Shown here in pieces: positions 4,301-60,603 of a stretch of 64,000 nucleotides of DNA. The notes below the pieces were generated by a model that had not been told where the DNA came from, did no database searches, and saw only the letters and a list, made by a program, of their open reading frames with translations. Both the position numbers and the translations under genes were made by a program. Source of the stretch: a virus; IMG/VR virus record IMGVR_UViG_3300045836_000083, positions 62 to 64,061 of that record. One strand, written 5' to 3'. Each line of letters begins with the position of its first letter. Positions within the stretch are counted from its first letter, which is position 1.

Positions 4301-5527
4301 TTTACTATTGAAAAAGGGAAAGCTGTAATATGGACTACAAAAATATTTGAAGCTGATTCCTGGCCTTTTAACGACGAAGGCGATAACTACACTTATTTCT
4401 ATAAAAATCTACGCGATAAGGATCACTTTTATAAATGTCTGGCCAGATTATCGGATGAAGAAAAGAAAAATCTAGTCTCTGAAACTTTAGGTATGGCTAT
4501 GGACAAGTTTATTCTAAAATCTAAAAAATCTCACAACAACGCTAAATATAAAAAACAATAGATTATGAGCAAGTTCGACAATATGAACAAGGAAACGCTA
4601 CCTGATCCATTAACAGGCGGCACGATGGATTTTTATACAAATCAGGATGGAACTTTTGCTATGTGTATACCGCATCAAGCAATTCCGATAAAATGTCAAA
4701 CGCCCAAAATAACATATGAGCCAATAACAGAAGGGATCAGAGTATGGTCTTTTGAGCCGCCAAAGACCGAAGACGCAGAATACGAAATACTAACTCCTAA
4801 ACAATTAACTGATGAAAAATAAAAATGAAGTAATTGAATCACTAATAAAAGAAATCCAAAACGAATCCTTTGCATTCTCTGAAATGGCGTTTAATGACAA
4901 AAACCTTGTCAAAAGTGGCGCATCCTATCAAGACGTTATAAACGTATTCTTATATAAGAAACTAGCTGAATTTGAATGTCGATTACGGAAGCTGGAACTA
5001 GATAATATTTGTAGAACAGATAATGTTATTGGAGGGTAATTAGAAAAAGCCATTAAAATACTTTCACTTAAACGCTGGGAACGCGCAGATTAAATGACAG
5101 TCTATCAATTTCTTTATTGTGATAATACTTGGGAATCAGGATTTATAACTATTAGTCTCCACTTTTCAAAAGAAGGAGCATATAATGCTATGCGAACATA
5201 TTTATTGAATGGCTATAATGAATGGTATTCTGGAAGTACTAAAAATTTCCGTAAGTCATGCCGATTTGGTAAATATCAAGCATGGAAAATAAATCCAATA
5301 CAAATTCAACCATAAAAATGAGTAAACAAATACAAGTAACAGGATGTAATGATTGTCCATGTTGTGATGTTCTGGATATGCATGTAGGATGGGGATGTTG
5401 TTTAAAACCTAAAGACGACCATGGTAATTATCTGAGAATAGAGAGCAATAGATTATACGGCCCGATAACTCCTGATTGGTGCCCATTAAAAGAACAGTCA
5501 ATAACAATAAAAATGAACCCCGCCTAA
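1314..5527 (+). CDS. Run of about 15 small tightly packed hypothetical phage genes (1314, 1576, 1963, 2172, 2434, 2709, 3024, 3377, 3735, 4043, 4295, 4565, 4812, 5094, 5318)
   Basis: Co-oriented 60-120 aa ORFs with short A-rich spacers or overlapping stop/start codons. No recognisable catalytic motifs. 2709..3005 and 3024..3380 are paralogous. Confidence 0.75.
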
Positions 5528-29012: not shown

Positions 29013-31454
29013 ATGCCTGATAATCAAAACAATAGTATTGGAATTTCCGGCCAATCGTATAAAGATTTTCTTCTTACAAAGAATATCCAAGATAAACTTG
29101 ACCCTAAATACGGCAAACAGTTGGCTATGGATATTGAAGCTAAATATTCGGCCGGGGTTGCAAACGGATATTCGTTTTTAAGAAATGATCGTTTTAAGAC
29201 TAATATTTTATGGTCTGCTGGTAAAATAAATGCCTATGCTTTATTCGCTGATCTTTTAAACTTCAATGGAAAAATAAATTACGCAAACATTGATTGGAAA
29301 CCTTTAATGATAATTAATAGAATTATCAGTGGGTTAGTAGGTCGATGGATGCAACGAATAGAAAAGGTTCATGTTACTGCTATTGACCCTATATCTGTTA
29401 ATGATAAAAAAGAACAATACGAACAAGCTGAATTTGTTTTATACAATCGAAAACAACTAGAACAATTACAACAAGAATCGGGAGTACCTATGATACCTCC
29501 TGATCAATTTGTAGCAGAAGATAAAGATGATTTAGAAGAATGGGCAATAACGGGGCAGAAATTACCAGAAGAAATAAAGTATGAAACAGGGACTAATGAT
29601 ATTCTACAGTCACAGGGATTTTTTGATGTTTTAAAGAAAAAATTACTTCATGATTCAGCCGAATGTGGCCTAGTGGGTACCTATGTTTGGATGGATGAAT
29701 ATGGTGTAATTCATGTAGAATGGGTAAAACCTTTGAACACATTCTATTCATATTCAGAATACGATGATTTCAGAGATACTGCTATGCGTGGTTATGTGAA
29801 ATCTATGAAGATTTCAGAGCTACGCAGGAAATATGGGAAGGAATTTGGGGGTAAGTTAACAGAAGAAGAAATATTTCAAATAGCCCAAACATCTTACGAA
29901 TATCAACGATTCGATAAACTTACATGGAATTATGATTGGTTATTAGCATATATACGACCATATGATGAATGGAACGTAGAATGCCTTGTATTCTGGATTA
30001 AATCAGTAGATGAAGATGGTTATTTAATGACTGTTACTAAACAGAATAAAAGAACCATCATTGAACGAAGACAACAAGCTCCAACTAATTTAGATGAAAA
30101 TCAAGAGTTCGTAAAAAAAGATAAGTGGAATCTGTATAAAGGAGTATATGTTAGATATGCTCAAAAGATGTTGGAATGGGGGTTAGATAACAATATGATT
30201 CGGCCTCAAGACCCAAAGGAATGTGGTGATGTAGAGTTTCCAATAAGTCTTTATATGTATCAAAATCAGGATATGCGAAATATTGCACTCCCTGAAAAAA
30301 TAGAAGTGCCAGTTAAGCAAATGATGGTTATTTACTTTAAGATGCAACAAGTAATAGCCACAATGATACCTCCAGGCGCTGCAATTAATATAGATGCATT
30401 GCAAGAAGTTCAATTGGGGTTAGCTGCGGATGGAGAAAGCTCAATAAACGTACAAAAACTATATGAACAAACCGGCAGATTATATTACCGTGGCCGAGAT
30501 GCCGAAGGGAATGCATTACCAGTTCCAATTACAGAACTGCAAAATGCAGGATTTATTGGAGCAATGAACGGGTTAATTGATCAATACCAATTTCAGTATG
30601 GAGTTTTAAAGGATCAATTAGGGGAAGACCCAAATCTTATTACTCAGGCCGTTCAACCACGTGTTACATCGGAAAATGTTGAAGCATCCCAACAAGCCGC
30701 GGCATTCGCTACCGATTATATGTATGATGCTTATTCTGCTGTGATGGCTGAAACTGCAAAAAAAGTAGCATGCTTACTTAATAATTCAGTCCGGTTCGGC
30801 AGTAAGGCTTATCATCATTTAATGCAAGAGGAAGATGTAGCTGATCGACAGTTTGCAACTAGATTTGAAATGCTTCCAGATCAATATGAATTAATGGATT
30901 TAAAGAATTTTATGAATCAGTCATTGGCTGCCAATCCTCCATTAATTCAGTATTTAGACCCGTTTAGAATAATGAGAATAGCTAAAGAAAACGTAAAATT
31001 AGCATCTCTTTATTTAAGAAATGCCATGAAACGAATGAATAGGGCAGAATCTGAAAAGGCGCAACAACTTAGTCAGCAAAATGCCCAGGTACAAGCAATG
31101 GCGGCTCAACAGAAGGCGCAAGGAGATATGCAGTTACAAACTCAGAAATTGCAAGTAGAAAAGGAATTAGAAGAATATAAAGGGTTACAAGCCATGAAGC
31201 TGGCTATAGTGCAAGGTGCGATGCAAATCGCAGCTAAATCCGAAAATCCTCAAATGCCTACTTGGCTAGCTCCTGTTTTAAATCAATTGGTGCCCAATTT
31301 AACTATACCAATCGACCAAGAAAATCAACAAATGGCTCAATTAATTCAAGGGCAAGCTATGCAACAACAGCAAAAGCAACAAGAATCTCAAGAGCCAGCA
31401 AGCGAAGAAATGCAAGAAAGTCCTGAAATGGTACAACAAGAACAAATTCAATAA
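29013..31454 (+). CDS. Portal protein
   Basis: 813 aa, directly after terL, helical with a Gln-rich coiled-coil C-terminal barrel; size and order as in crAss-like podoviruses. Confidence 0.85.
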   Translation: MPDNQNNSIGISGQSYKDFLLTKNIQDKLDPKYGKQLAMDIEAKYSAGVANGYSFLRNDRFKTNILWSAGKINAYALFADLLNFNGKINYANIDWKPLMIINRIISGLVGRWMQRIEKVHVTAIDPISVNDKKEQYEQAEFVLYNRKQLEQLQQESGVPMIPPDQFVAEDKDDLEEWAITGQKLPEEIKYETGTNDILQSQGFFDVLKKKLLHDSAECGLVGTYVWMDEYGVIHVEWVKPLNTFYSYSEYDDFRDTAMRGYVKSMKISELRRKYGKEFGGKLTEEEIFQIAQTSYEYQRFDKLTWNYDWLLAYIRPYDEWNVECLVFWIKSVDEDGYLMTVTKQNKRTIIERRQQAPTNLDENQEFVKKDKWNLYKGVYVRYAQKMLEWGLDNNMIRPQDPKECGDVEFPISLYMYQNQDMRNIALPEKIEVPVKQMMVIYFKMQQVIATMIPPGAAINIDALQEVQLGLAADGESSINVQKLYEQTGRLYYRGRDAEGNALPVPITELQNAGFIGAMNGLIDQYQFQYGVLKDQLGEDPNLITQAVQPRVTSENVEASQQAAAFATDYMYDAYSAVMAETAKKVACLLNNSVRFGSKAYHHLMQEEDVADRQFATRFEMLPDQYELMDLKNFMNQSLAANPPLIQYLDPFRIMRIAKENVKLASLYLRNAMKRMNRAESEKAQQLSQQNAQVQAMAAQQKAQGDMQLQTQKLQVEKELEEYKGLQAMKLAIVQGAMQIAAKSENPQMPTWLAPVLNQLVPNLTIPIDQENQQMAQLIQGQAMQQQQKQQESQEPASEEMQESPEMVQQEQIQ

Positions 31455-33493: not shown

Positions 33494-34933
33494 ATGGCAG
33501 GCATTCCTACCAGTAATATATTGCAACCCGGTAATATTTCAGTTTCCGGTGGTGCAAATAGAACACTCGTTTCCAATTTACAATTACTTACTCCACAGTA
33601 CTATAAAACATTTGTTGAAAAATATGGGCCTGAAAACTGGACATGGTGGTTAGCCACATATGGAGGCATGGAACAAGTTTACAACCGTAATTTCTTCTGG
33701 TTTGAAAGCAGAGGTAAATTGCAAATTGGTATTCAACTTGCTTCCGATGTAACAGGGTTATCAGCAGGTTCAACTGCTGCTTGTACTTTGGCGGCTGGCT
33801 TCCATTATAATTCAGGTACTCAAACTCCATTAAGGGTTGGTGAAACAGTATATATCGCTTCTACAAACGTTGGAGCTGAAATTATAGCAATCACAGGAAC
33901 TACCCCGAATGCTTTTACCTTTAATTTACGGCCAAAACAATCTACTCAATCATTAGCATCTGCTGGTCAGGCATCTACCCTGCAAGCTACAGATGTATTA
34001 ATTTTTGGTGGTCGTACGGACGTGGGGGAAGCATCTGGTACAAGCGATCCTCAAGTTTATTTAACTCAACCGTACAATAATAACATTACTGAGTTTCACG
34101 ATACCTGGTCAGCTACTGACTTGGGTGAAATGACAGATGTATATATTGATACTGGCGTAAGTGGTTCGCCTATTGGCGGTGCTGCACAAGCAGGCACAAG
34201 CTACTTTACATACATGGGGTTAACAAAAGCATCTCAACGTTTCGTTAATAACGTAGAACGTAAATTGATGTTTGGTGATGCAGTTACAAATACAGGATTA
34301 GGGACTACGACATCCGTCGGTTCACAAGGTGTTTTACCATTTATTTTAGCTAACGGGGAAACTGTAAACTATTCAGTAGGTAATTTGGATATTGGATTTT
34401 TACATACTATGACGCGTGTAATGGATGTAAATGGATGTGTGAAACAAAATATGTGGATGGCAGATATTTTCCAACGCCAAGACTTTTCTGATGGTATTTT
34501 TACTCAATTCCCTGCTGGTTCTTTTGTTTGGGGATATGGTGAAAAGTCAGAAGAAGCTAGTCTAGCTTATGGTTTTAAAGTAATTGATATAGACGGGTAT
34601 CGTTTCCAAATTTCTAAATACAGAAACTTTAACTCGGAAGCTTATACGGGTCTTACTCCTGTCAATGACTATTTCCGTAACTACGGTTTCCTGTGTCCAA
34701 TGGGTGAAACCCCGGACGCTAAAACTCCATCAAGAGTATATAAGAATATTACCATAATGGCTCAACAACCCCCAAAAGGTGGTTCAGTCGGAAATGGTAT
34801 CCGCGTATGGAACTGGGGTGGTGGTTCAACCAATCCAACTGATGGAACATTGCGGGATAATATTGAAATGGCAACATATCGCGCAACACGTGTAGTTGCA
34901 GGCAACCAGTTTATCAATATTGTAGGAAGTTAA
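33494..34933 (+). CDS. Major capsid protein
   Basis: 479 aa Gly/Thr-rich protein after the scaffold and followed by a strong terminator; FFWFE N-arm motif typical of Bacteroidota phage MCPs. Confidence 0.85.
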   Translation: MAGIPTSNILQPGNISVSGGANRTLVSNLQLLTPQYYKTFVEKYGPENWTWWLATYGGMEQVYNRNFFWFESRGKLQIGIQLASDVTGLSAGSTAACTLAAGFHYNSGTQTPLRVGETVYIASTNVGAEIIAITGTTPNAFTFNLRPKQSTQSLASAGQASTLQATDVLIFGGRTDVGEASGTSDPQVYLTQPYNNNITEFHDTWSATDLGEMTDVYIDTGVSGSPIGGAAQAGTSYFTYMGLTKASQRFVNNVERKLMFGDAVTNTGLGTTTSVGSQGVLPFILANGETVNYSVGNLDIGFLHTMTRVMDVNGCVKQNMWMADIFQRQDFSDGIFTQFPAGSFVWGYGEKSEEASLAYGFKVIDIDGYRFQISKYRNFNSEAYTGLTPVNDYFRNYGFLCPMGETPDAKTPSRVYKNITIMAQQPPKGGSVGNGIRVWNWGGGSTNPTDGTLRDNIEMATYRATRVVAGNQFINIVGS

Positions 34934-56304: not shown

Positions 56305-56718
56305 ATGCTACACTATTTATATGACTATGGTTCTTTTCTATTAGGAGCAGCTTTATATATTTTAGCGAAAATGCAAAAGTATAAAGAAATGGCAGAAGCT
56401 AACCCTAATCCTAACGTGAAATCAAGTTGGAAAGCAATGTTTAACAAGGAAGTTATAAACTTTATAAGATTGCTTCTTGGTGGGGTAGCACTAGTAATAT
56501 TTCTACCTATGTTAATAGGGGGGGCTACTGTGGATTTTAAAAGTGTAGAAGGCCAAGTAATAACAACCCTTACTCTACAGTCATTATTAATTCCAATGTA
56601 TTTTTTTGTAGGTTATGCAGGTAATAGTGCATTATTCGCTTTTTTTGGGAAATATGAAAAAACATTACTTAATAGGGTTGGAGTAGATGACACTACGCCA
56701 ACCCAAAAAACTCCATAA
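56305..56718 (+). CDS. Multi-pass membrane protein (holin candidate)
   Basis: Three hydrophobic segments; start of the lysis region. Confidence 0.55.
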   Translation: MLHYLYDYGSFLLGAALYILAKMQKYKEMAEANPNPNVKSSWKAMFNKEVINFIRLLLGGVALVIFLPMLIGGATVDFKSVEGQVITTLTLQSLLIPMYFFVGYAGNSALFAFFGKYEKTLLNRVGVDDTTPTQKTP

Positions 56719-56913
56719 ATGAAGCAAAGATTATTGGACATTCTAAACGAATTACATCTTCATTGTGAAAAAAATGCACATGATGAAGAGCTTAAAGCGA
56801 TTAAAGATAAATTTCATACTGCAATTGCTGCGATGGATGAAACTAGTGAGCCGCCTACGAGTGGTGGCAATAATCCTCCGAGCCAGCCAGATGTGCCATC
56901 AGAAAGCGCCTGA
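56719..56913 (+). CDS. Small soluble protein
   Basis: Abuts the upstream stop; 64 aa. Confidence 0.55.
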   Translation: MKQRLLDILNELHLHCEKNAHDEELKAIKDKFHTAIAAMDETSEPPTSGGNNPPSQPDVPSESA

Positions 56914-57244
56914 GATTAGTATAATTTGGTATTTATCCGGCTTATTAATATTTCATACCTATGCTTTATTCGGGACTAAAGTTTGGGATGAAATTTATTA
57001 TTTGTGGGATAAATCCAAAGATGCACTTTTGATTTTATCATTATACCGCCTACTTCCTATTTACCGAATCAATATAGCACCTCTCCTAATCTATTCAATT
57101 ATACGGGTATGTTTTCAAATAATGAGTTTTTTCACAAAAATGGGAAGCAACAACAAGTATATAGTCAACATTCTATTTCTCCTATCATTGGGAGCAATAA
57201 TATTCATAACCCTACGCCAAGCAATAAACGAATGGAAAAACTAA
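56891..57244 (+). CDS. Multi-pass membrane protein (likely start ATG 56891 rather than 56765)
   Basis: About four hydrophobic helices after MCHQKAPE. Confidence 0.6.
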   Translation: MCHQKAPEISIIWYLSGLLIFHTYALFGTKVWDEIYYLWDKSKDALLILSLYRLLPIYRINIAPLLIYSIIRVCFQIMSFFTKMGSNNKYIVNILFLLSLGAIIFITLRQAINEWKN

Positions 57245-57450
57245 TATTACATGCTGTATTGACTACAGGATTTGGTGCGTATCTTTTTGCTATTTTTTTG
57301 AATATAGGAACTTGGAAAGCAGACCTTCTATTTTTCATGGGAGCAGCTTTTATAATACTGAAATTCATACGTTTAAGCATAAGAACATGGCAAGACTATA
57401 AACGAACAGAAATTGAAATTCGGATTAAAAGGAAAGAATCAGAAAAATAA
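57232..57450 (+). CDS. Two-TM small membrane protein (class II holin-like; likely start ATG 57232)
   Basis: MEKLILHAVLTTGFGAYLFAIFL...LLFFMGAAFIILKFIRL plus a charged C-tail. Confidence 0.6.
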   Translation: MEKLILHAVLTTGFGAYLFAIFLNIGTWKADLLFFMGAAFIILKFIRLSIRTWQDYKRTEIEIRIKRKESEK

Positions 57451-57452
57451 AA

Positions 57453-57553
57453 TATATTTGTAGGGCTTAACCAAAATTGGAAGATATGGCGCTCAAAGGT
57501 GCAAGACGGGAAAATCCTAGTTTTGGTTAAGCACACTTTTGAGCGCCATTCTT
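57453..57553 (+). ncRNA. Promoter plus candidate structured RNA with pseudoknot topology
   Basis: TATATTTG at 57453-60. 57465-76 pairs with 57521-32 and 57486-97 pairs with 57538-49, each 12 Watson-Crick bp, in A-B-A'-B' order. Confidence 0.65.
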
Positions 57554-57569
57554 ATTTAAAATTTGTAGC

Positions 57570-58337
57570 GTGAAATTACCTTACTGGTTAAAAATTCTAG
57601 CAATCATACTGATTATATTTCTAGTGTATGCATTAATACGCGGCTGTAAAAATGCAAAGCATAAGTATGATAATTATGATAACATTTCAGCCCAACTGAC
57701 AAAGGTATTGCAAGAAAAAGAGGATGATAGTTTAGCTGCTCTGATAAAGGAGCAATTGCAACGAGACACTATTGCATTCATAAATGGTCAGTTAGCCTTA
57801 TTTCAGAACAAAAACCTAGTAACTACTGATTCCTTAAGGGCAGCAAATAATCGTATAACAACCCTCCTACATAAACCCATTTCTATTCCTACCTTATCCG
57901 ACAGCGGAAGAACAACAGTTAATAATGAGTTTATTGCCGATTGCTCAGACTGCTTCAAAGAACTATCCAACGGGCAACAATTAGTCACACGCTATAAATC
58001 AGAAAAGGATAGCATTCAGTCATTATTGACTTATAAAATATCAATAATGGATGATGAAATAAACGACCTTAATAAAACAAATAATTTTCTCCATCAAAAG
58101 GTAAATGATGCAGTTAGCCTAGCACAACGCAGTCAAAAACAATCACAAATAAGAAGAACATTATATTTTAGTTTGGCAGCATTAAGTATCAAGGGCCCCC
58201 TTCCTAGTGGAGTGGGAGCCGGTTTTATTTATATGGATAAACATATGCGTTTATTTGGAGCTAACTACTTTATAAGTAATTATGGGGCCATTTATCAGGC
58301 TCAATTGTCTATGCCATTATCTTTAAAAGGGCGCTAA
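57570..58337 (+). CDS. Spanin-like protein (N-terminal TM, coiled-coil, C-terminal beta-strands)
   Basis: GTG start, TM ILAIILIIFLVYALI, long coiled-coil and amphipathic beta C-terminus; located before the endolysin. Confidence 0.6.
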   Translation: MKLPYWLKILAIILIIFLVYALIRGCKNAKHKYDNYDNISAQLTKVLQEKEDDSLAALIKEQLQRDTIAFINGQLALFQNKNLVTTDSLRAANNRITTLLHKPISIPTLSDSGRTTVNNEFIADCSDCFKELSNGQQLVTRYKSEKDSIQSLLTYKISIMDDEINDLNKTNNFLHQKVNDAVSLAQRSQKQSQIRRTLYFSLAALSIKGPLPSGVGAGFIYMDKHMRLFGANYFISNYGAIYQAQLSMPLSLKGR

Positions 58338-58496
58338 ATGATTTGGTTACATTTTATACCAATTACAGTTTTAACGATCTTTTATTTGTTATTGAAAAGA
58401 TTGCCAGAACGAATATCTAATGATCTGCAAGCAGATGCGAATGTAAATGAAGCCTATCGCATTATAAACAATAAAATTAAAATTAAGGATAGATGA
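58338..58496 (+). CDS. 52-aa single-TM peptide (not in the ORF track)
   Basis: Translated by hand: MIWLHFIPITVLTIFYLLLKRLPER...KDR; ATGA overlap with the endolysin. Confidence 0.65.
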   Translation: MIWLHFIPITVLTIFYLLLKRLPERISNDLQADANVNEAYRIINNKIKIKDR

Positions 58497-59038
58497 CAGA
58501 CTATCAACACTTATGGGATACAATGATAGTAGACCTTGATAAATTAGGCATTATAAGTGCTATTGTCAGCAAAATACAAACCCGAAAGAATTTATACGAT
58601 ACTGTTGAAGCTGCTATCCGCGTACCTTGGTATGTGACGGCTGTTATTCATTATAGAGAATCCGGGCTAAGTATTCTACGTCATCTGCATAATGGTGACC
58701 CATTAACAGGAAAGACTATCCACGTTCCAGCCGGCAGGCCAATACATGGAGAGCCACCGTTTTCTTGGCAGGCGAGTGCTATGGATGCATTACAGCTAAA
58801 AGGCTTTGATAAAGTAACAGATTGGTCTTTGCCTCATATGCTAGAATTGATAGAAGGATATAATGGCTTTGGCTATCAAAAGCGTGGTATCCCATCTCCA
58901 TATTTATGGTCATATTCCGATAATTACCACAGAGGTAAGTACGTGGCTGATGGTAAATTTGACCCGAACGCAATAGACCAACAATGTGGAGCTGCCGTAC
59001 TTCTCAAATCCTTAATATCGGATAGTATTCATAATTAA
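58493..59038 (+). CDS. Endolysin, lysozyme-like (COG5526 type)
   Basis: AVIHYRES, HLHNGDPL, EGYNGFGY, SPYLWS, GKYVADG and QCGAA. Confidence 0.88.
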   Translation: MTDYQHLWDTMIVDLDKLGIISAIVSKIQTRKNLYDTVEAAIRVPWYVTAVIHYRESGLSILRHLHNGDPLTGKTIHVPAGRPIHGEPPFSWQASAMDALQLKGFDKVTDWSLPHMLELIEGYNGFGYQKRGIPSPYLWSYSDNYHRGKYVADGKFDPNAIDQQCGAAVLLKSLISDSIHN

Positions 59039-59084: not shown

Positions 59085-59110
59085 AACCGTGGCATTTGTC
59101 ACGGTTTTTT
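59085..59110 (+). terminator. Late-operon terminator
   Basis: AACCGTGGC-attt-GTCACGGTT followed by TTTT. Confidence 0.75.
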
Positions 59111-59115
59111 GCATT

Positions 59116-59143
59116 AAAAAAGCCCAGTTAAGACTAACCAGGC
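59116..59143 (-). terminator. Terminator for the leftward early operon
   Basis: Minus strand reads GCCTGGTTA-gtct-TAACTGGGC-TTTTTT (stem includes G-U pairs). Confidence 0.7.
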
Positions 59144-59727: not shown

Positions 59728-60603
59728 TTATTCATTAAATATGGAACGAATTATTTCACCTCCATAGGCATTTTGAGTTAATTTAACAAAGGTTTCTACC
59801 GTCATTGAACCATCAAGAGTAATACCATTTTCTTTTAACCAATGTTTTTTACCAGATTCACAAGAACCTGTGAGAATTGTATGCCATTTGTAAAAAAGAT
59901 CATTGGAATATTGATTTCCCGGTTTGAATTGGCTTTTAAATTCTAAAATGGCCTTCTCCTTATCAAGTGATGAGTAATACTTTATATCTACGGCTTCATT
60001 AGCTTCCTTAATAGTTTCACCATGCGCAAATAAATTGCCTTTTTTAACTACATACATCGCAGAGGTTGAAAAATCGGCCACATTAATAATTGAGACTAGT
60101 GCAACATTGCCTTTTATACTATCAAAAGTGCATGGTATTTTGTCGATATAGTAAACCTTTTTGACACCAATAGAAGAAAATATAATGCCGTAGCTGTCGC
60201 CGTCGCCGTAGCCATCGCCGTAGCCGTAGCTGTTGCCGTAGCCGTTGCCGTAGCCGTTGCCGTTGCCGTCGCCGTTGCCGTCGCCGTTGCCGTCGCTGTT
60301 GCCGTAGCCGTTGCCGTTGCCGTCGCCGTTGCCGTCGCCGTCGCCGTTGCCGTCGCCGTAGCCATCACCGTAGCCGTCGCCGTTGCCGTCGCCGTCGCCG
60401 TAGCCGTAGCCGTAGCCATCACCGTAGCCGTCGCCGTTGCCGTCGCCGTCGCCGTCGCCGTTGCCGTAGCTGTTGCCGTAGCCGTTGCCGTAGCCGTAGC
60501 CGTAGCCGTAGCCGTTGCCGTCGCCGTTGCCGTCGCCGTCGCCGTTGCCGTAGCCATCGCCGTAGCCGTCTATTTTCAAGAATTGTTTAATTATCTTTTC
60601 CAT
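59728..60603 (-). CDS. Gly-x repeat protein with a C-terminal globular domain
   Basis: About 130 residues of G-(D/N/Y) repeats; the C-domain contains FAHGETIKEA and WHTILTGSCESG. Confidence 0.85.
   Translation of the reverse strand: MEKIIKQFLKIDGYGDGYGNGDGDGNGDGNGYGYGYGYGNGYGNSYGNGDGDGDGNGDGYGDGYGYGYGDGDGNGDGYGDGYGDGNGDGDGNGDGNGNGYGNSDGNGDGNGDGNGNGYGNGYGNSYGYGDGYGDGDSYGIIFSSIGVKKVYYIDKIPCTFDSIKGNVALVSIINVADFSTSAMYVVKKGNLFAHGETIKEANEAVDIKYYSSLDKEKAILEFKSQFKPGNQYSNDLFYKWHTILTGSCESGKKHWLKENGITLDGSMTVETFVKLTQNAYGGEIIRSIFNE
60187..60570 (-). repeat. Hexamer tandem array GGC(G/A/T)AC, roughly 60 units
   Basis: The plus strand reads GCCGTN repeated throughout. Confidence 0.95.

What the first reader, a model, noticed from the sequence alone, without database searches (positions are those of the whole stretch)
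57453..57569. Two interleaved 12-bp stems (pseudoknot order) between a promoter and the spanin-like gene
Seen: GCTTAACCAAAA (57465-76) is the exact reverse complement of TTTTGGTTAAGC (57521-32). ATGGCGCTCAAA (57486-97) is the exact reverse complement of TTTGAGCGCCAT (57538-49). Both stems extend to about 16 bp with G-U pairs. The order A-B-A'-B' is not a nested inverted repeat, so a simple DNA duplication or terminator does not explain it. A TATATTTG -7 element sits 4 nt before stem A, stem B' ends near 16 nt before the GTG at 57570, and a 14-codon uORF (57486-57530) runs through the element. Inference: an unrecognised structured RNA, either a pseudoknot or a two-state switch, that times lysis-gene expression or acts as a small phage RNA. 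I cannot match it to a known riboswitch or ribozyme.
Basis: partly seen in the sequence, partly recalled or inferred. Interest (0 to 1): 0.75.

Follow-up and report, generated by a model that had tools for sequence, protein, structure and literature searches.

The report
Switchable terminator leader before phage lysis genes
A roughly 90-base RNA leader is conserved in soil phages of Bacteroidota, can fold either into a 5' hairpin or into a transcription terminator, and probably gates the lysis-region genes downstream; it is a new RNA family but of a familiar kind.

Summary
Both 12-nt inverted repeats sit at the stated coordinates, and each extends to 16 pairs. Only four places in the 64-kb window hold a perfect 12-nt inverted repeat, and two of them interleave here.

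The same element lies upstream of the same 255-aa gene in nine other uncultured phages whose flanking proteins are only 30-43% identical. Both stems covary strongly. G.U outnumbers A.C 33 to 8 inside the helices, so the structure is RNA of the + strand. Rfam has no match.

Anatomy:
- A Bacteroidota -7 promoter box lies 4 nt before the first paired base of stem A, which predicts a transcript start at 57465.
- B:B' plus a U-rich tail looks like an intrinsic terminator.
- A' lies inside the terminator loop and abuts B' (gap of 2 nt or less in all ten).
- The 5' half of A' has a second partner, A2, next to B.

The nascent RNA is predicted to fold into A:A' first. The full-length minimum is B:B' plus A2:A'. 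I read it as a two-state attenuator, not a static pseudoknot. The trigger is unknown and nothing has been tested at the bench. The uORF is not conserved. This is a new variant of a known kind.

The parts
57453..57460 (+). -7 promoter box TATATTTG (Bacteroidota sigma-A type, TAnnTTTG)
   Evidence: Read. It is kept, perfect or with one mismatch, exactly 4 nt (L060: 5) before the first paired base of stem A in the other nine loci. PMC6847099 reports 4-5 nt spacing between this box and the transcript start.
57465..57465 (+). Predicted transcription start, which is also the first paired base of stem A
   Evidence: Inferred from the box spacing. There are no RNA data to test it.
57465..57480 (+). 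Stem A, 5' arm (core 57465-57476)
   Evidence: Covaries with A'.
57481..57485 (+). A-rich linker L1 (AAGAT), which can pair with the U-rich tail and lengthen the terminator stem
   Evidence: MFE structure. An AAG(A/G) run is conserved in the alignment.
57486..57501 (+). Stem B, 5' arm of the terminator hairpin
   Evidence: Covaries with B'.
57502..57507 (+). A2 (CAAGAC), an alternative partner for the 5' half of A' that forms the top of the terminator hairpin
   Evidence: MFE structures. An equivalent A2:A' apical helix is predicted in all ten sequences.
57517..57532 (+). Stem A', 3' arm (core 57521-57532), located inside the loop of the terminator hairpin
57534..57549 (+). Stem B', 3' arm of the terminator hairpin, starting 1 nt after A'
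   Evidence: The A'-to-B' gap is -1 to 2 nt in all ten sequences.
57550..57563 (+). U-rich terminator tail (TCTTATTTAAAATT)
57564..57572 (+). Conserved start context TGTAGCGTG with the GTG start codon. It belongs to the downstream gene, not to the RNA element.
   Evidence: Unique in the window. Also kept in homologous loci that lack the element.
57570..58337 (+). Downstream 255-aa gene: N-terminal membrane helix followed by an almost invariant Cys, a CxxC pair, and a C-terminal PLSLK motif. The family is found mostly in phages.
   Evidence: No Pfam, PHROG or NCBIfam hit.
57109..57450 (+). Upstream 113-aa membrane protein (holin-like by position only); its stop codon lies 14 nt before stem A
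58493..59038 (+). Last gene of the block, 181 aa, at the position held by Phage_lysozyme (PF00959) genes in relatives
   Evidence: It has no family hit of its own.

Best explanation
This is a conserved cis-acting leader RNA of about 90 nt that works as a two-state transcription attenuator.

A host-type promoter (-7 box at 57453-57460) is predicted to start the transcript at the first base of A. As the RNA is made, A pairs with A' and forms a 5'-terminal hairpin that holds B in its loop. When B' emerges, the more stable alternative becomes possible: the long B:B' hairpin, capped by A2 paired with the 5' half of A' and followed by a U-rich tail. That is an intrinsic terminator.

A' directly abuts B' and A nearly abuts B, so the two long helices cannot both be complete. 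Whichever forms in time decides the outcome. Either the polymerase stops and releases a short RNA of about 90 nt, or it reads on into the 255-aa envelope-protein gene and the last genes of the lysis-region block.

Shown here: the two interleaved helices, their conservation and covariation, the strand, the fixed promoter spacing, the terminator-like tail, and the competing A2 partner.

Inferred: that B:B' terminates, that A:A' prevents it, that the promoter fires, and that the output is the timing or level of lysis-gene expression. The signal that tips the balance is unknown.
For: - Ten independent phage loci carry the element at the same place, although the flanking protein is only 30-43% identical.
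- In each locus the two best helices are the interleaved pair.
- B:B' has 91% of cells paired and 15 of 16 pairs with changes on both sides; 0 of 500 shuffles reach this, and slid controls give 37-53%.
- A:A', on a MAFFT alignment not fitted to any structure, has 83.5% of cells paired and 10 of 14 pairs with double changes; 0-1 of 500 shuffles reach this.
- G.U outnumbers A.C 33 to 8 inside the helices (p about 1e-4). The + strand folds about 10 kcal/mol better than the - strand.
- TAnnTTTG sits 4 nt before the first paired base of A. This matches the published 4-5 nt spacing to the transcript start (PMC6847099).
- A U-rich tail follows B' in all ten and resembles the tail of the phage's own terminator after the gene ending at 34933.
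- In all ten, the predicted fold from the transcript start to the end of A' contains A:A' (-18 to -26 kcal/mol). The full element's minimum is B:B' plus A2:A' (-29 to -39 kcal/mol).
- The A'-to-B' gap is -1 to 2 nt in all ten.
- Every strongly conserved letter is accounted for by the promoter box, the helices, the tail or the start context.
- There is one copy per genome in the four complete or near-complete phage records where the model finds it. The model gives no false hits in 0.9 Mb of unrelated phage DNA.
- Homologous loci without the element have no terminator between the genes or are tightly packed. A strong terminator here would therefore need a bypass.
Against: - There is no transcript evidence. 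No public RNA run holds the region, so the promoter, the 3' end and read-through are all predictions.
- No sensor has been identified. A switch with no known input could simply be a leaky terminator.
- A:A' and B:B' share no nucleotides. The claim that they exclude each other rests on loop-length geometry and on the A2 competition, not on measurement. ViennaRNA cannot score pseudoknots, so the 'two states' are partly a product of the nested-only model.
- The B:B' alignment was fitted to that structure by the covariance model, which inflates its pair counts.
- The ten sequences are related by descent, so the shuffle controls overstate significance.
- The lysis role of the downstream genes rests on synteny only.
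Confidence: 0.55

Rival explanations
1. It is a stand-alone small RNA gene. The promoter and terminator make an RNA of about 90 nt whose job lies elsewhere, either trans-acting on phage or host mRNAs or as a by-product like lambda 6S RNA. A:A' pairing would serve that RNA's own folding, stability or seed masking. The downstream genes would be expressed by another route.
For: The region has a complete promoter, body and terminator layout. In the most stable fold A is a free 5' tail of 12-16 nt ahead of a terminator hairpin, which is the usual sRNA shape. Phage leaders that yield a functional short RNA are known, for example IsrK and P4 CI (PMC4825925).
Against: No second complementary target for A or A' exists in the phage. 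The element always sits directly upstream of the same gene, in the same orientation, and is never elsewhere. A strong terminator in mid-block would cut off the downstream genes unless it can be bypassed. The tight abutment of A' and B' has no reason under this reading. This rival is not exclusive of the attenuator, because any attenuator also makes the short RNA.
Confidence: 0.2
2. It is an RNA stability or processing element. The 5'-terminal hairpin A:A' would protect the transcript from 5'-end-dependent decay. The long B:B' duplex would be a cleavage site for a double-strand-specific RNase that separates upstream and downstream messages.
For: The predicted transcript start is the first paired base of A, as in protective 5' stem-loops. 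B:B' plus A2:A' gives more than 22 nearly continuous pairs.
Against: This does not explain why the two helices are interleaved with almost no linker. It also does not explain the conserved U-rich tail or the need for A2.
Confidence: 0.1
3. It is a static pseudoknot. Both helices, or most of both, form together as one compact fold that acts on the polymerase (like HK022 put RNA) or on the ribosome.
For: The interleaved order is that of a pseudoknot, and both helices covary. A side-by-side arrangement is conceivable where L1 is 4 nt or more and L2 is 10-15 nt.
Against: L3 is -1 to 2 nt, and L1 is 1-3 nt in five of ten loci. By the established loop-length rules for H-type pseudoknots, these are too short to cross helices of 10-16 and 16-25 pairs. 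The conserved A2 competitor for A' implies exchange of partners rather than coexistence. No unpaired nucleotides are conserved for tertiary contacts.
Confidence: 0.08
4. It is a DNA-level feature: paired protein-binding half-sites, a cruciform, or a recombination or inversion site.
For: Perfect inverted repeats in intergenic DNA; Bacteroidota use many invertible promoters.
Against: Transition mismatches are G.T on the + strand 33 times and A.C 8 times, which only matters for RNA. The enclosed segments, about 40-45 bp, are too short for known invertases. A terminator tail and a promoter box are conserved around it.
Confidence: 0.03

Closest known systems
Classical terminator/antiterminator attenuators (trp and pyr leaders, T-box, transcriptional riboswitch expression platforms)
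   Same: It is a leader just after a promoter. It has an intrinsic terminator and an earlier-forming alternative helix. One segment (the 5' half of A') has two exclusive partners. The decision is made during transcription.
   Different: The main antiterminator helix A:A' shares no nucleotide with the terminator stem B:B'. It encloses the 5' arm of the terminator and uses the terminator's loop. No aptamer, leader peptide or known binding site is present. The trigger is unknown.
'Tug-of-war' transcriptional riboswitch architecture (Bushhouse, Fu and Lucks, bioRxiv 10.64898/2026.06.17.733018)
   Same: The antiterminating structure and the terminator have no sequence overlap, and short spacers between them are essential. 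That study shows by experiment that plain upstream hairpins or pseudoknots can suppress termination.
   Different: There the competing structure lies wholly upstream of the terminator. Here its 3' arm lies inside the terminator loop, so the helices are interleaved. There is also no ligand-binding domain here.
Lambda PR'-6S RNA-tR' module with Q antiterminator
   Same: A promoter is followed after a short distance by a strong terminator, placed directly upstream of lysis genes. The default product is a short RNA.
   Different: Lambda needs the Q protein. No Q-family gene is detectable in this phage. Here a conserved RNA alternative structure is present instead.
Phage leader RNAs that act on their own operon: Gifsy-1 IsrK and P4 CI RNA (PMC4825925)
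   Same: These are phage leaders with a terminator, where a short terminated or processed RNA and the read-through transcript interact by base pairing.
   Different: No sequence or Rfam relation. Trans action is untested here. The hosts are enterobacteria, not Bacteroidota.
H-type pseudoknots such as the T2/T4 gene 32 autoregulatory pseudoknot
   Same: The stem order is interleaved, 5'-S1-S2-S1'-S2'-3'.
   Different: The stems here are 10-16 and 16-25 pairs, and the junction loops are 0-2 nt (L3) and often 1-3 nt (L1). By established loop-length rules both cannot be complete at once.

Membership tests
Intrinsic (Rho-independent) terminator | Stable G+C-containing hairpin on the sense strand | tested here: met
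   B:B' is 16-25 pairs with 6-10 G-C pairs in all ten sequences. The hairpin state is -29 to -39 kcal/mol.
Intrinsic (Rho-independent) terminator | U-rich tract directly 3' of the hairpin | tested here: met
   A T-rich tail follows B' in all ten. The window's tail TCTTATTT is interrupted but matches the tail of the phage's own terminator after the gene ending at 34933. The generic scan missed it because its loop limit is 3-8 nt.
Intrinsic (Rho-independent) terminator | Transcripts end in the U tract | not testable with these tools
   No RNA run holds the region.
Transcription attenuator (terminator/antiterminator switch) | Terminator lies in a leader between a promoter and the regulated gene | tested here: met
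   The -7 box is 4 nt before A, the terminator tail ends a few nt before the GTG, and the layout is the same in ten loci. The promoter is by motif only.
Transcription attenuator (terminator/antiterminator switch) | Conserved alternative structure that is incompatible with the terminator and forms earlier | tested here: met
   A:A' covaries. It is the predicted fold of the nascent prefix in 10 of 10. The 5' half of A' pairs with either A or A2. Junctions of 2 nt or less argue against coexistence. Incompatibility is inferred from geometry, not measured.
Transcription attenuator (terminator/antiterminator switch) | An input (ligand, protein, tRNA, ribosome, RNA) that selects the structure | tested here: inconclusive
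   There are no conserved unpaired nucleotides and no conserved leader peptide. The distance from the upstream stop codon to A varies from 9 to 156 nt.
Known Rfam families (riboswitches, ribozymes, sRNAs, leaders) | Covariance-model match | tested here: not met
   cmscan of 56500-58500 at E up to 10 gives only chance-level hits. The best one overlapping the element is mir-249 at E = 9.3. There is no tRNA or tmRNA.
H-type pseudoknot (static) | Two interleaved helices | tested here: met
H-type pseudoknot (static) | Loop lengths that let both helices form together | tested here: not met
   L3 is -1 to 2 nt against a stem of 10-16 pairs, and L1 is 1-3 nt in five of ten against a stem of 16-25 pairs. 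This is judged against established loop-length rules; no 3-D modelling was done.
Bacteroidota sigma-A promoter | -7 element TAnnTTTG, 4-5 nt upstream of the transcript start | tested here: met
   The window, L011, L014, L017, L021 and L024 have a perfect box. L004, L010, L012 and L060 have one mismatch. The spacing to the first base of A is 4 nt (L060: 5) (rule from PMC6847099). No clear -33 TTTG is present. The transcript start itself is not testable here.
Lambda-type Q antitermination module | Q-family antiterminator gene in the phage | tested here: not met
   PF03589 and PF06530 give no match in the 64.5-kb record. A divergent analogue cannot be excluded.
'Tug-of-war' architecture | Competing structure placed wholly and immediately upstream of the terminator | tested here: not met
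   The 3' arm of the competing helix (A') lies inside the terminator loop.

The most novel reading that the evidence does not exclude
The leader may be a self-titrating RNA timer. A and A' are complementary, so the terminated RNA of about 90 nt carries a free A at its 5' end. It could pair in trans with A' (or through its own A' with A) of nascent leaders. That would block the cis A:A' hairpin and force termination. Read-through into the lysis-region genes would then depend on the ratio of short RNA to template copies. This would be a protein-free feedback built from one RNA, in a phylum that lacks Hfq-type sRNA systems.
Probability: 0.12. Interest if true: 0.8.

Novelty: new variant of a known kind. 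Interest (0 to 1): 0.6.

Why it matters
- Almost nothing is known about how phages of Bacteroidota, a dominant phylum in soil, water and the gut, schedule their late and lysis genes.
- This element is a concrete, compact and conserved candidate regulator with clear mutational predictions.
- Its layout puts the antiterminator around the terminator's 5' arm and inside its loop, with no shared stem nucleotides and a strand-exchange partner. That differs from textbook attenuators. It would broaden the range of natural designs for co-transcriptional RNA switches and complement the recent finding that non-overlapping structures can suppress termination.
- It shows that gene callers can mis-start the downstream gene inside the element, as in L004.
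- It provides a covariance model seed for a family that is not in Rfam.

Tried and rejected
- Rfam at permissive thresholds and ARAGORN found nothing.
- The GenBank phage DNA search found no match.
- Pfam, PHROGs and NCBIfam on the neighbouring proteins gave nothing useful. PDB by sequence for the 181-aa protein gave nothing.
- Three further locus scans found no relatives of the 255-aa protein: one of metagenome contigs, one of genome contigs and two more of viral contigs.
- A last metagenome scan gave 11 loci, but only a duplicate of L011 carried the element.
- The first DNA pattern scan returned four chance hits. The second returned 116 loci, of which only L060 and a duplicate of L011 were real.
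- MAFFT could not put B:B' in register. I therefore built a covariance model from the window alone, then rebuilt it from its eight hits.
- Conserved uORF or leader peptide: rejected. Only 5 of 10 elements hold any ATG ORF, and these differ in place and peptide. The GTG at the 3' end of B is in frame with the gene in L004 and L011 but not in the window.
- A second promoter giving a leaderless mRNA (AAnnTTTG-TAGC-GTG): considered unlikely. It lacks the near-invariant T at -12, and GTAGCGTG is also kept where the gene overlaps its upstream neighbour.
- Ribosome-at-stop-codon coupling: the distance from the stop codon to A varies from 9 to 156 nt.
- Expression data: no RNA run holds the stretch.
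- Extra copies in the same genomes: none found.

Full report
**1. The observation**

Reading 57200-57800 and the repeat finder confirm the two exact 12-nt inverted repeats at the stated coordinates and in the order A-B-A'-B'. With G.U pairs both extend to 16 pairs:
- A is 57465-57480 with A' 57517-57532.
- B is 57486-57501 with B' 57534-57549.

TATATTTG lies at 57453-57460, 4 nt before A. B' ends 20 nt, not about 16, before the GTG at 57570. The 14-codon ORF exists.

Chance is excluded for practical purposes:
- The window holds perfect 12-nt inverted repeats with a gap of 80 nt or less at only four places. Two of them are interleaved here. Shuffles give a mean of 0.82 seeds per window.
- The stretch folds 4.3 SD better than its shuffles.

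**2. Setting**

The window is almost the whole of a 64.5-kb uncultured virus record. It is found in soil and rhizosphere metagenomes. The promoter motif found here fits that, but I did not test it further.

The element fills the 119-nt gap between two genes. Upstream is a 113-aa membrane protein. Downstream is a 255-aa protein with an N-terminal membrane helix, a nearly invariant Cys, a CxxC pair and a C-terminal PLSLK motif.

The 255-aa gene is followed by a 52-aa ORF, a 181-aa ORF and convergent terminators at 59085-59143. None of these proteins hits Pfam, PHROGs or NCBIfam. In several relatives the last gene of the block is a Phage_lysozyme gene. 'Lysis region' is therefore a reasonable label by synteny, and nothing more than that.

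**3. Relatives**

A word-based protein search found one homologue of the 255-aa protein. An exhaustive profile search found 95.

Ten different loci carry the element directly upstream of the homologous start codon: the window, L004, L010, L011, L012, L014, L017, L021, L024 and L060.

About fourteen homologous loci lack it. In those the genes are tightly packed, or a different insert is present.

On a protein tree the element sits in 8 of 12 rows of one clade, plus L060. About five gains or losses are needed, and a single origin is not excluded.

The flanking proteins are only 30-43% identical, and tree paths between them are 1.4-2 changes per site. Even so, the two best helices in every one of the ten sequences are the interleaved pair.

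**4. Covariation and strand**

- RNAalifold on a plain MAFFT alignment picks A:A', with 10 of 14 pairs showing changes on both sides.
- The pair counter on a ten-sequence MAFFT alignment gives 83.5% paired and a covariation score of 0.525, against 0.225 in shuffles. Only 0-1 of 500 shuffles reach this, and slid controls give 23-50%.
- MAFFT could not register B:B'. I built a covariance model from the window alone with B:B' as its structure. It found eight of the other nine at the expected places, and a rebuilt model found all ten.
- On that fitted alignment B:B' has 91.3% paired and 15 of 16 pairs with double changes. No shuffle of 500 reaches this, and slid controls give 37-53%. This count leans towards the structure because the alignment was fitted to it.
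- I repeated the helix search with G.T and A.C treated alike. The helices then hold 33 G.U and 8 A.C (binomial p about 1e-4, not corrected for relatedness).
- The + strand folds about 10 kcal/mol better than the - strand.

The structure is therefore RNA read from the + strand, the sense strand of the flanking genes.

**5. Anatomy common to all ten**

(a) A TAnnTTTG box, perfect in six and one mismatch off in four, lies 4 nt (L060: 5) before the first paired base of A. In Flavobacterium johnsoniae this -7 element lies 4-5 nt upstream of mapped transcript starts (PMC6847099). The predicted start is therefore 57465, the first base of A.

(b) A is 10-16 nt.

(c) L1 is a short, A-rich linker of 1-5 nt in seven loci and 10-15 nt in three.

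(d) B is 16-25 nt.

(e) A2 comes directly after B. It is a short segment that resembles the 3' half of A and pairs with the 5' half of A'.

(f) A small apical loop follows.

(g) Then comes A'.

(h) L3 is -1 to 2 nt.

(i) Then comes B'.

(j) A U-rich tail follows. In the window it is TCTTATTT.

(k) The start context TGTAGCGTG comes 10-15 nt later. This last motif belongs to the gene. It is also kept in loci where the upstream ORF runs right up to the start codon.

Every strongly conserved letter falls in one of these parts. There is no conserved unpaired patch that could be a ligand pocket.

**6. Two states**

ViennaRNA predicts the following in 10 of 10 sequences:
- The RNA from the predicted start to the end of A' folds into the A:A' hairpin (-18 to -26 kcal/mol).
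- The full element has its minimum in the long B:B' hairpin capped by A2:A' (-29 to -39 kcal/mol).

These predictions consider only nested structures, so by themselves they cannot say whether both helices coexist. Two independent arguments say they do not.

First, geometry. A' abuts B' with a gap of 2 nt or less, and A is often within 1-3 nt of B. By the established loop-length rules for H-type pseudoknots, such junctions cannot cross helices of 10-16 and 16-25 pairs.

Second, partner exchange. The 5' half of A' has two alternative partners, the 3' half of A and A2. Both are kept complementary in all ten sequences.

B:B' plus the tail has the defining sequence features of an intrinsic terminator. 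The most economical reading is a promoter-proximal attenuator. The 5' hairpin forms first and holds the terminator's 5' arm in its loop. The terminator needs A2 to strip the inner half of A:A' before it can zip up.

Recent experiments give the mechanism a precedent. They show that structures with no sequence overlap suppress intrinsic termination when the spacer to the terminator is short (bioRxiv 10.64898/2026.06.17.733018). The interleaved layout here is different from theirs.

**7. What is not known**

- The input. I found no conserved leader peptide, no fixed distance to the upstream stop codon, no Q-family antiterminator, and no sigma-70 region 4 domain in this phage.
- Transcripts. No RNA-seq run holds the region. 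The promoter, the termination and the read-through are all untested.
- The short RNA. It may itself be functional, as in Gifsy-1 IsrK or P4 CI (PMC4825925). Since A and A' are complementary, trans pairing between the released RNA and nascent leaders is possible. I list that as the most novel reading not excluded.

**8. Rivals**

- A stand-alone sRNA gene explains the promoter and terminator. It does not explain the fixed position before one gene, the abutting arms, or the absence of a second target.
- A stability or processing element does not explain the interleaving or the tail.
- A static pseudoknot is disfavoured by the junction lengths and by A2.
- A DNA-level site is disfavoured by the G.U asymmetry.

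**9. Verdict**

The finding is real, conserved and not in Rfam. It is best filed as a new variant of a known kind, a terminator/antiterminator leader with an unusual interleaved layout, in phages whose regulation is unexplored. The model is specific: it gives no hit at E of 0.1 or less in 0.9 Mb of unrelated phage DNA, and one copy per genome.

Interest is moderate to good for RNA and phage specialists. It would rise if the trans-feedback reading, or any defined trigger, were shown.

Noticed in passing
It is a textbook intrinsic terminator and a useful internal reference for what terminator tails look like in this phage.
   Followed up: partly
window 30860-30949: Inside the 813-aa ORF (29013-31454) a TAGATTTG box with 4-nt spacing is followed by a perfect 12-nt inverted repeat (30887-30898 with 30938-30949). 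It could be an internal promoter with a structured RNA, or chance.
   Followed up: no
whole window: The promoter-like pattern TAnnTTTG-N4-G is under-represented: 8 found against 16.8 expected from shuffles, and 99 of 100 shuffles have at least as many. This may mean selection against stray host-type promoters.
   Followed up: no
L004 5109-5178: The gene caller started the 255-aa homologue at a GTG inside stem B, adding 23 residues that align with nothing. The likely true start is the GTG at 5178. Structured leaders of this kind can cause mis-annotated starts.
   Followed up: partly
window 57564-57572 and homologous loci: The start context GTAGCGTG, with a GTG start, is kept across the protein family. 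This holds even where the upstream ORF ends in the TAG of this motif (L148-L150). It suggests a conserved translation-initiation or coupling signal in a phylum without Shine-Dalgarno sites.
   Followed up: partly
L004 7251-7727 (-) and L024 3607-3789 (-): Two relatives encode an ECF-type sigma factor (Sigma70_r2 and r4_2) just beyond the lysis-region block on the opposite strand. No sigma region 4 domain is detectable in the window's own genome.
   Followed up: partly
window 59728-60603 (-): A 291-aa protein has a long N-terminal run of GYG/GDG/GNG repeats (TrAA12-like Pfam hit, E = 1.7e-11). The overlapping 'MATATAT...' ORF in another frame of the same strand is an artefact of the repeat.
   Followed up: no
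window 57437-57444; L014 1371-1378; L021: The last codons of the upstream gene read AATCAGAA, which resembles the 3' half of stem A and could also pair with A'. This may be a trace of how stem A arose, or a third competitor on read-through transcripts.
   Followed up: no
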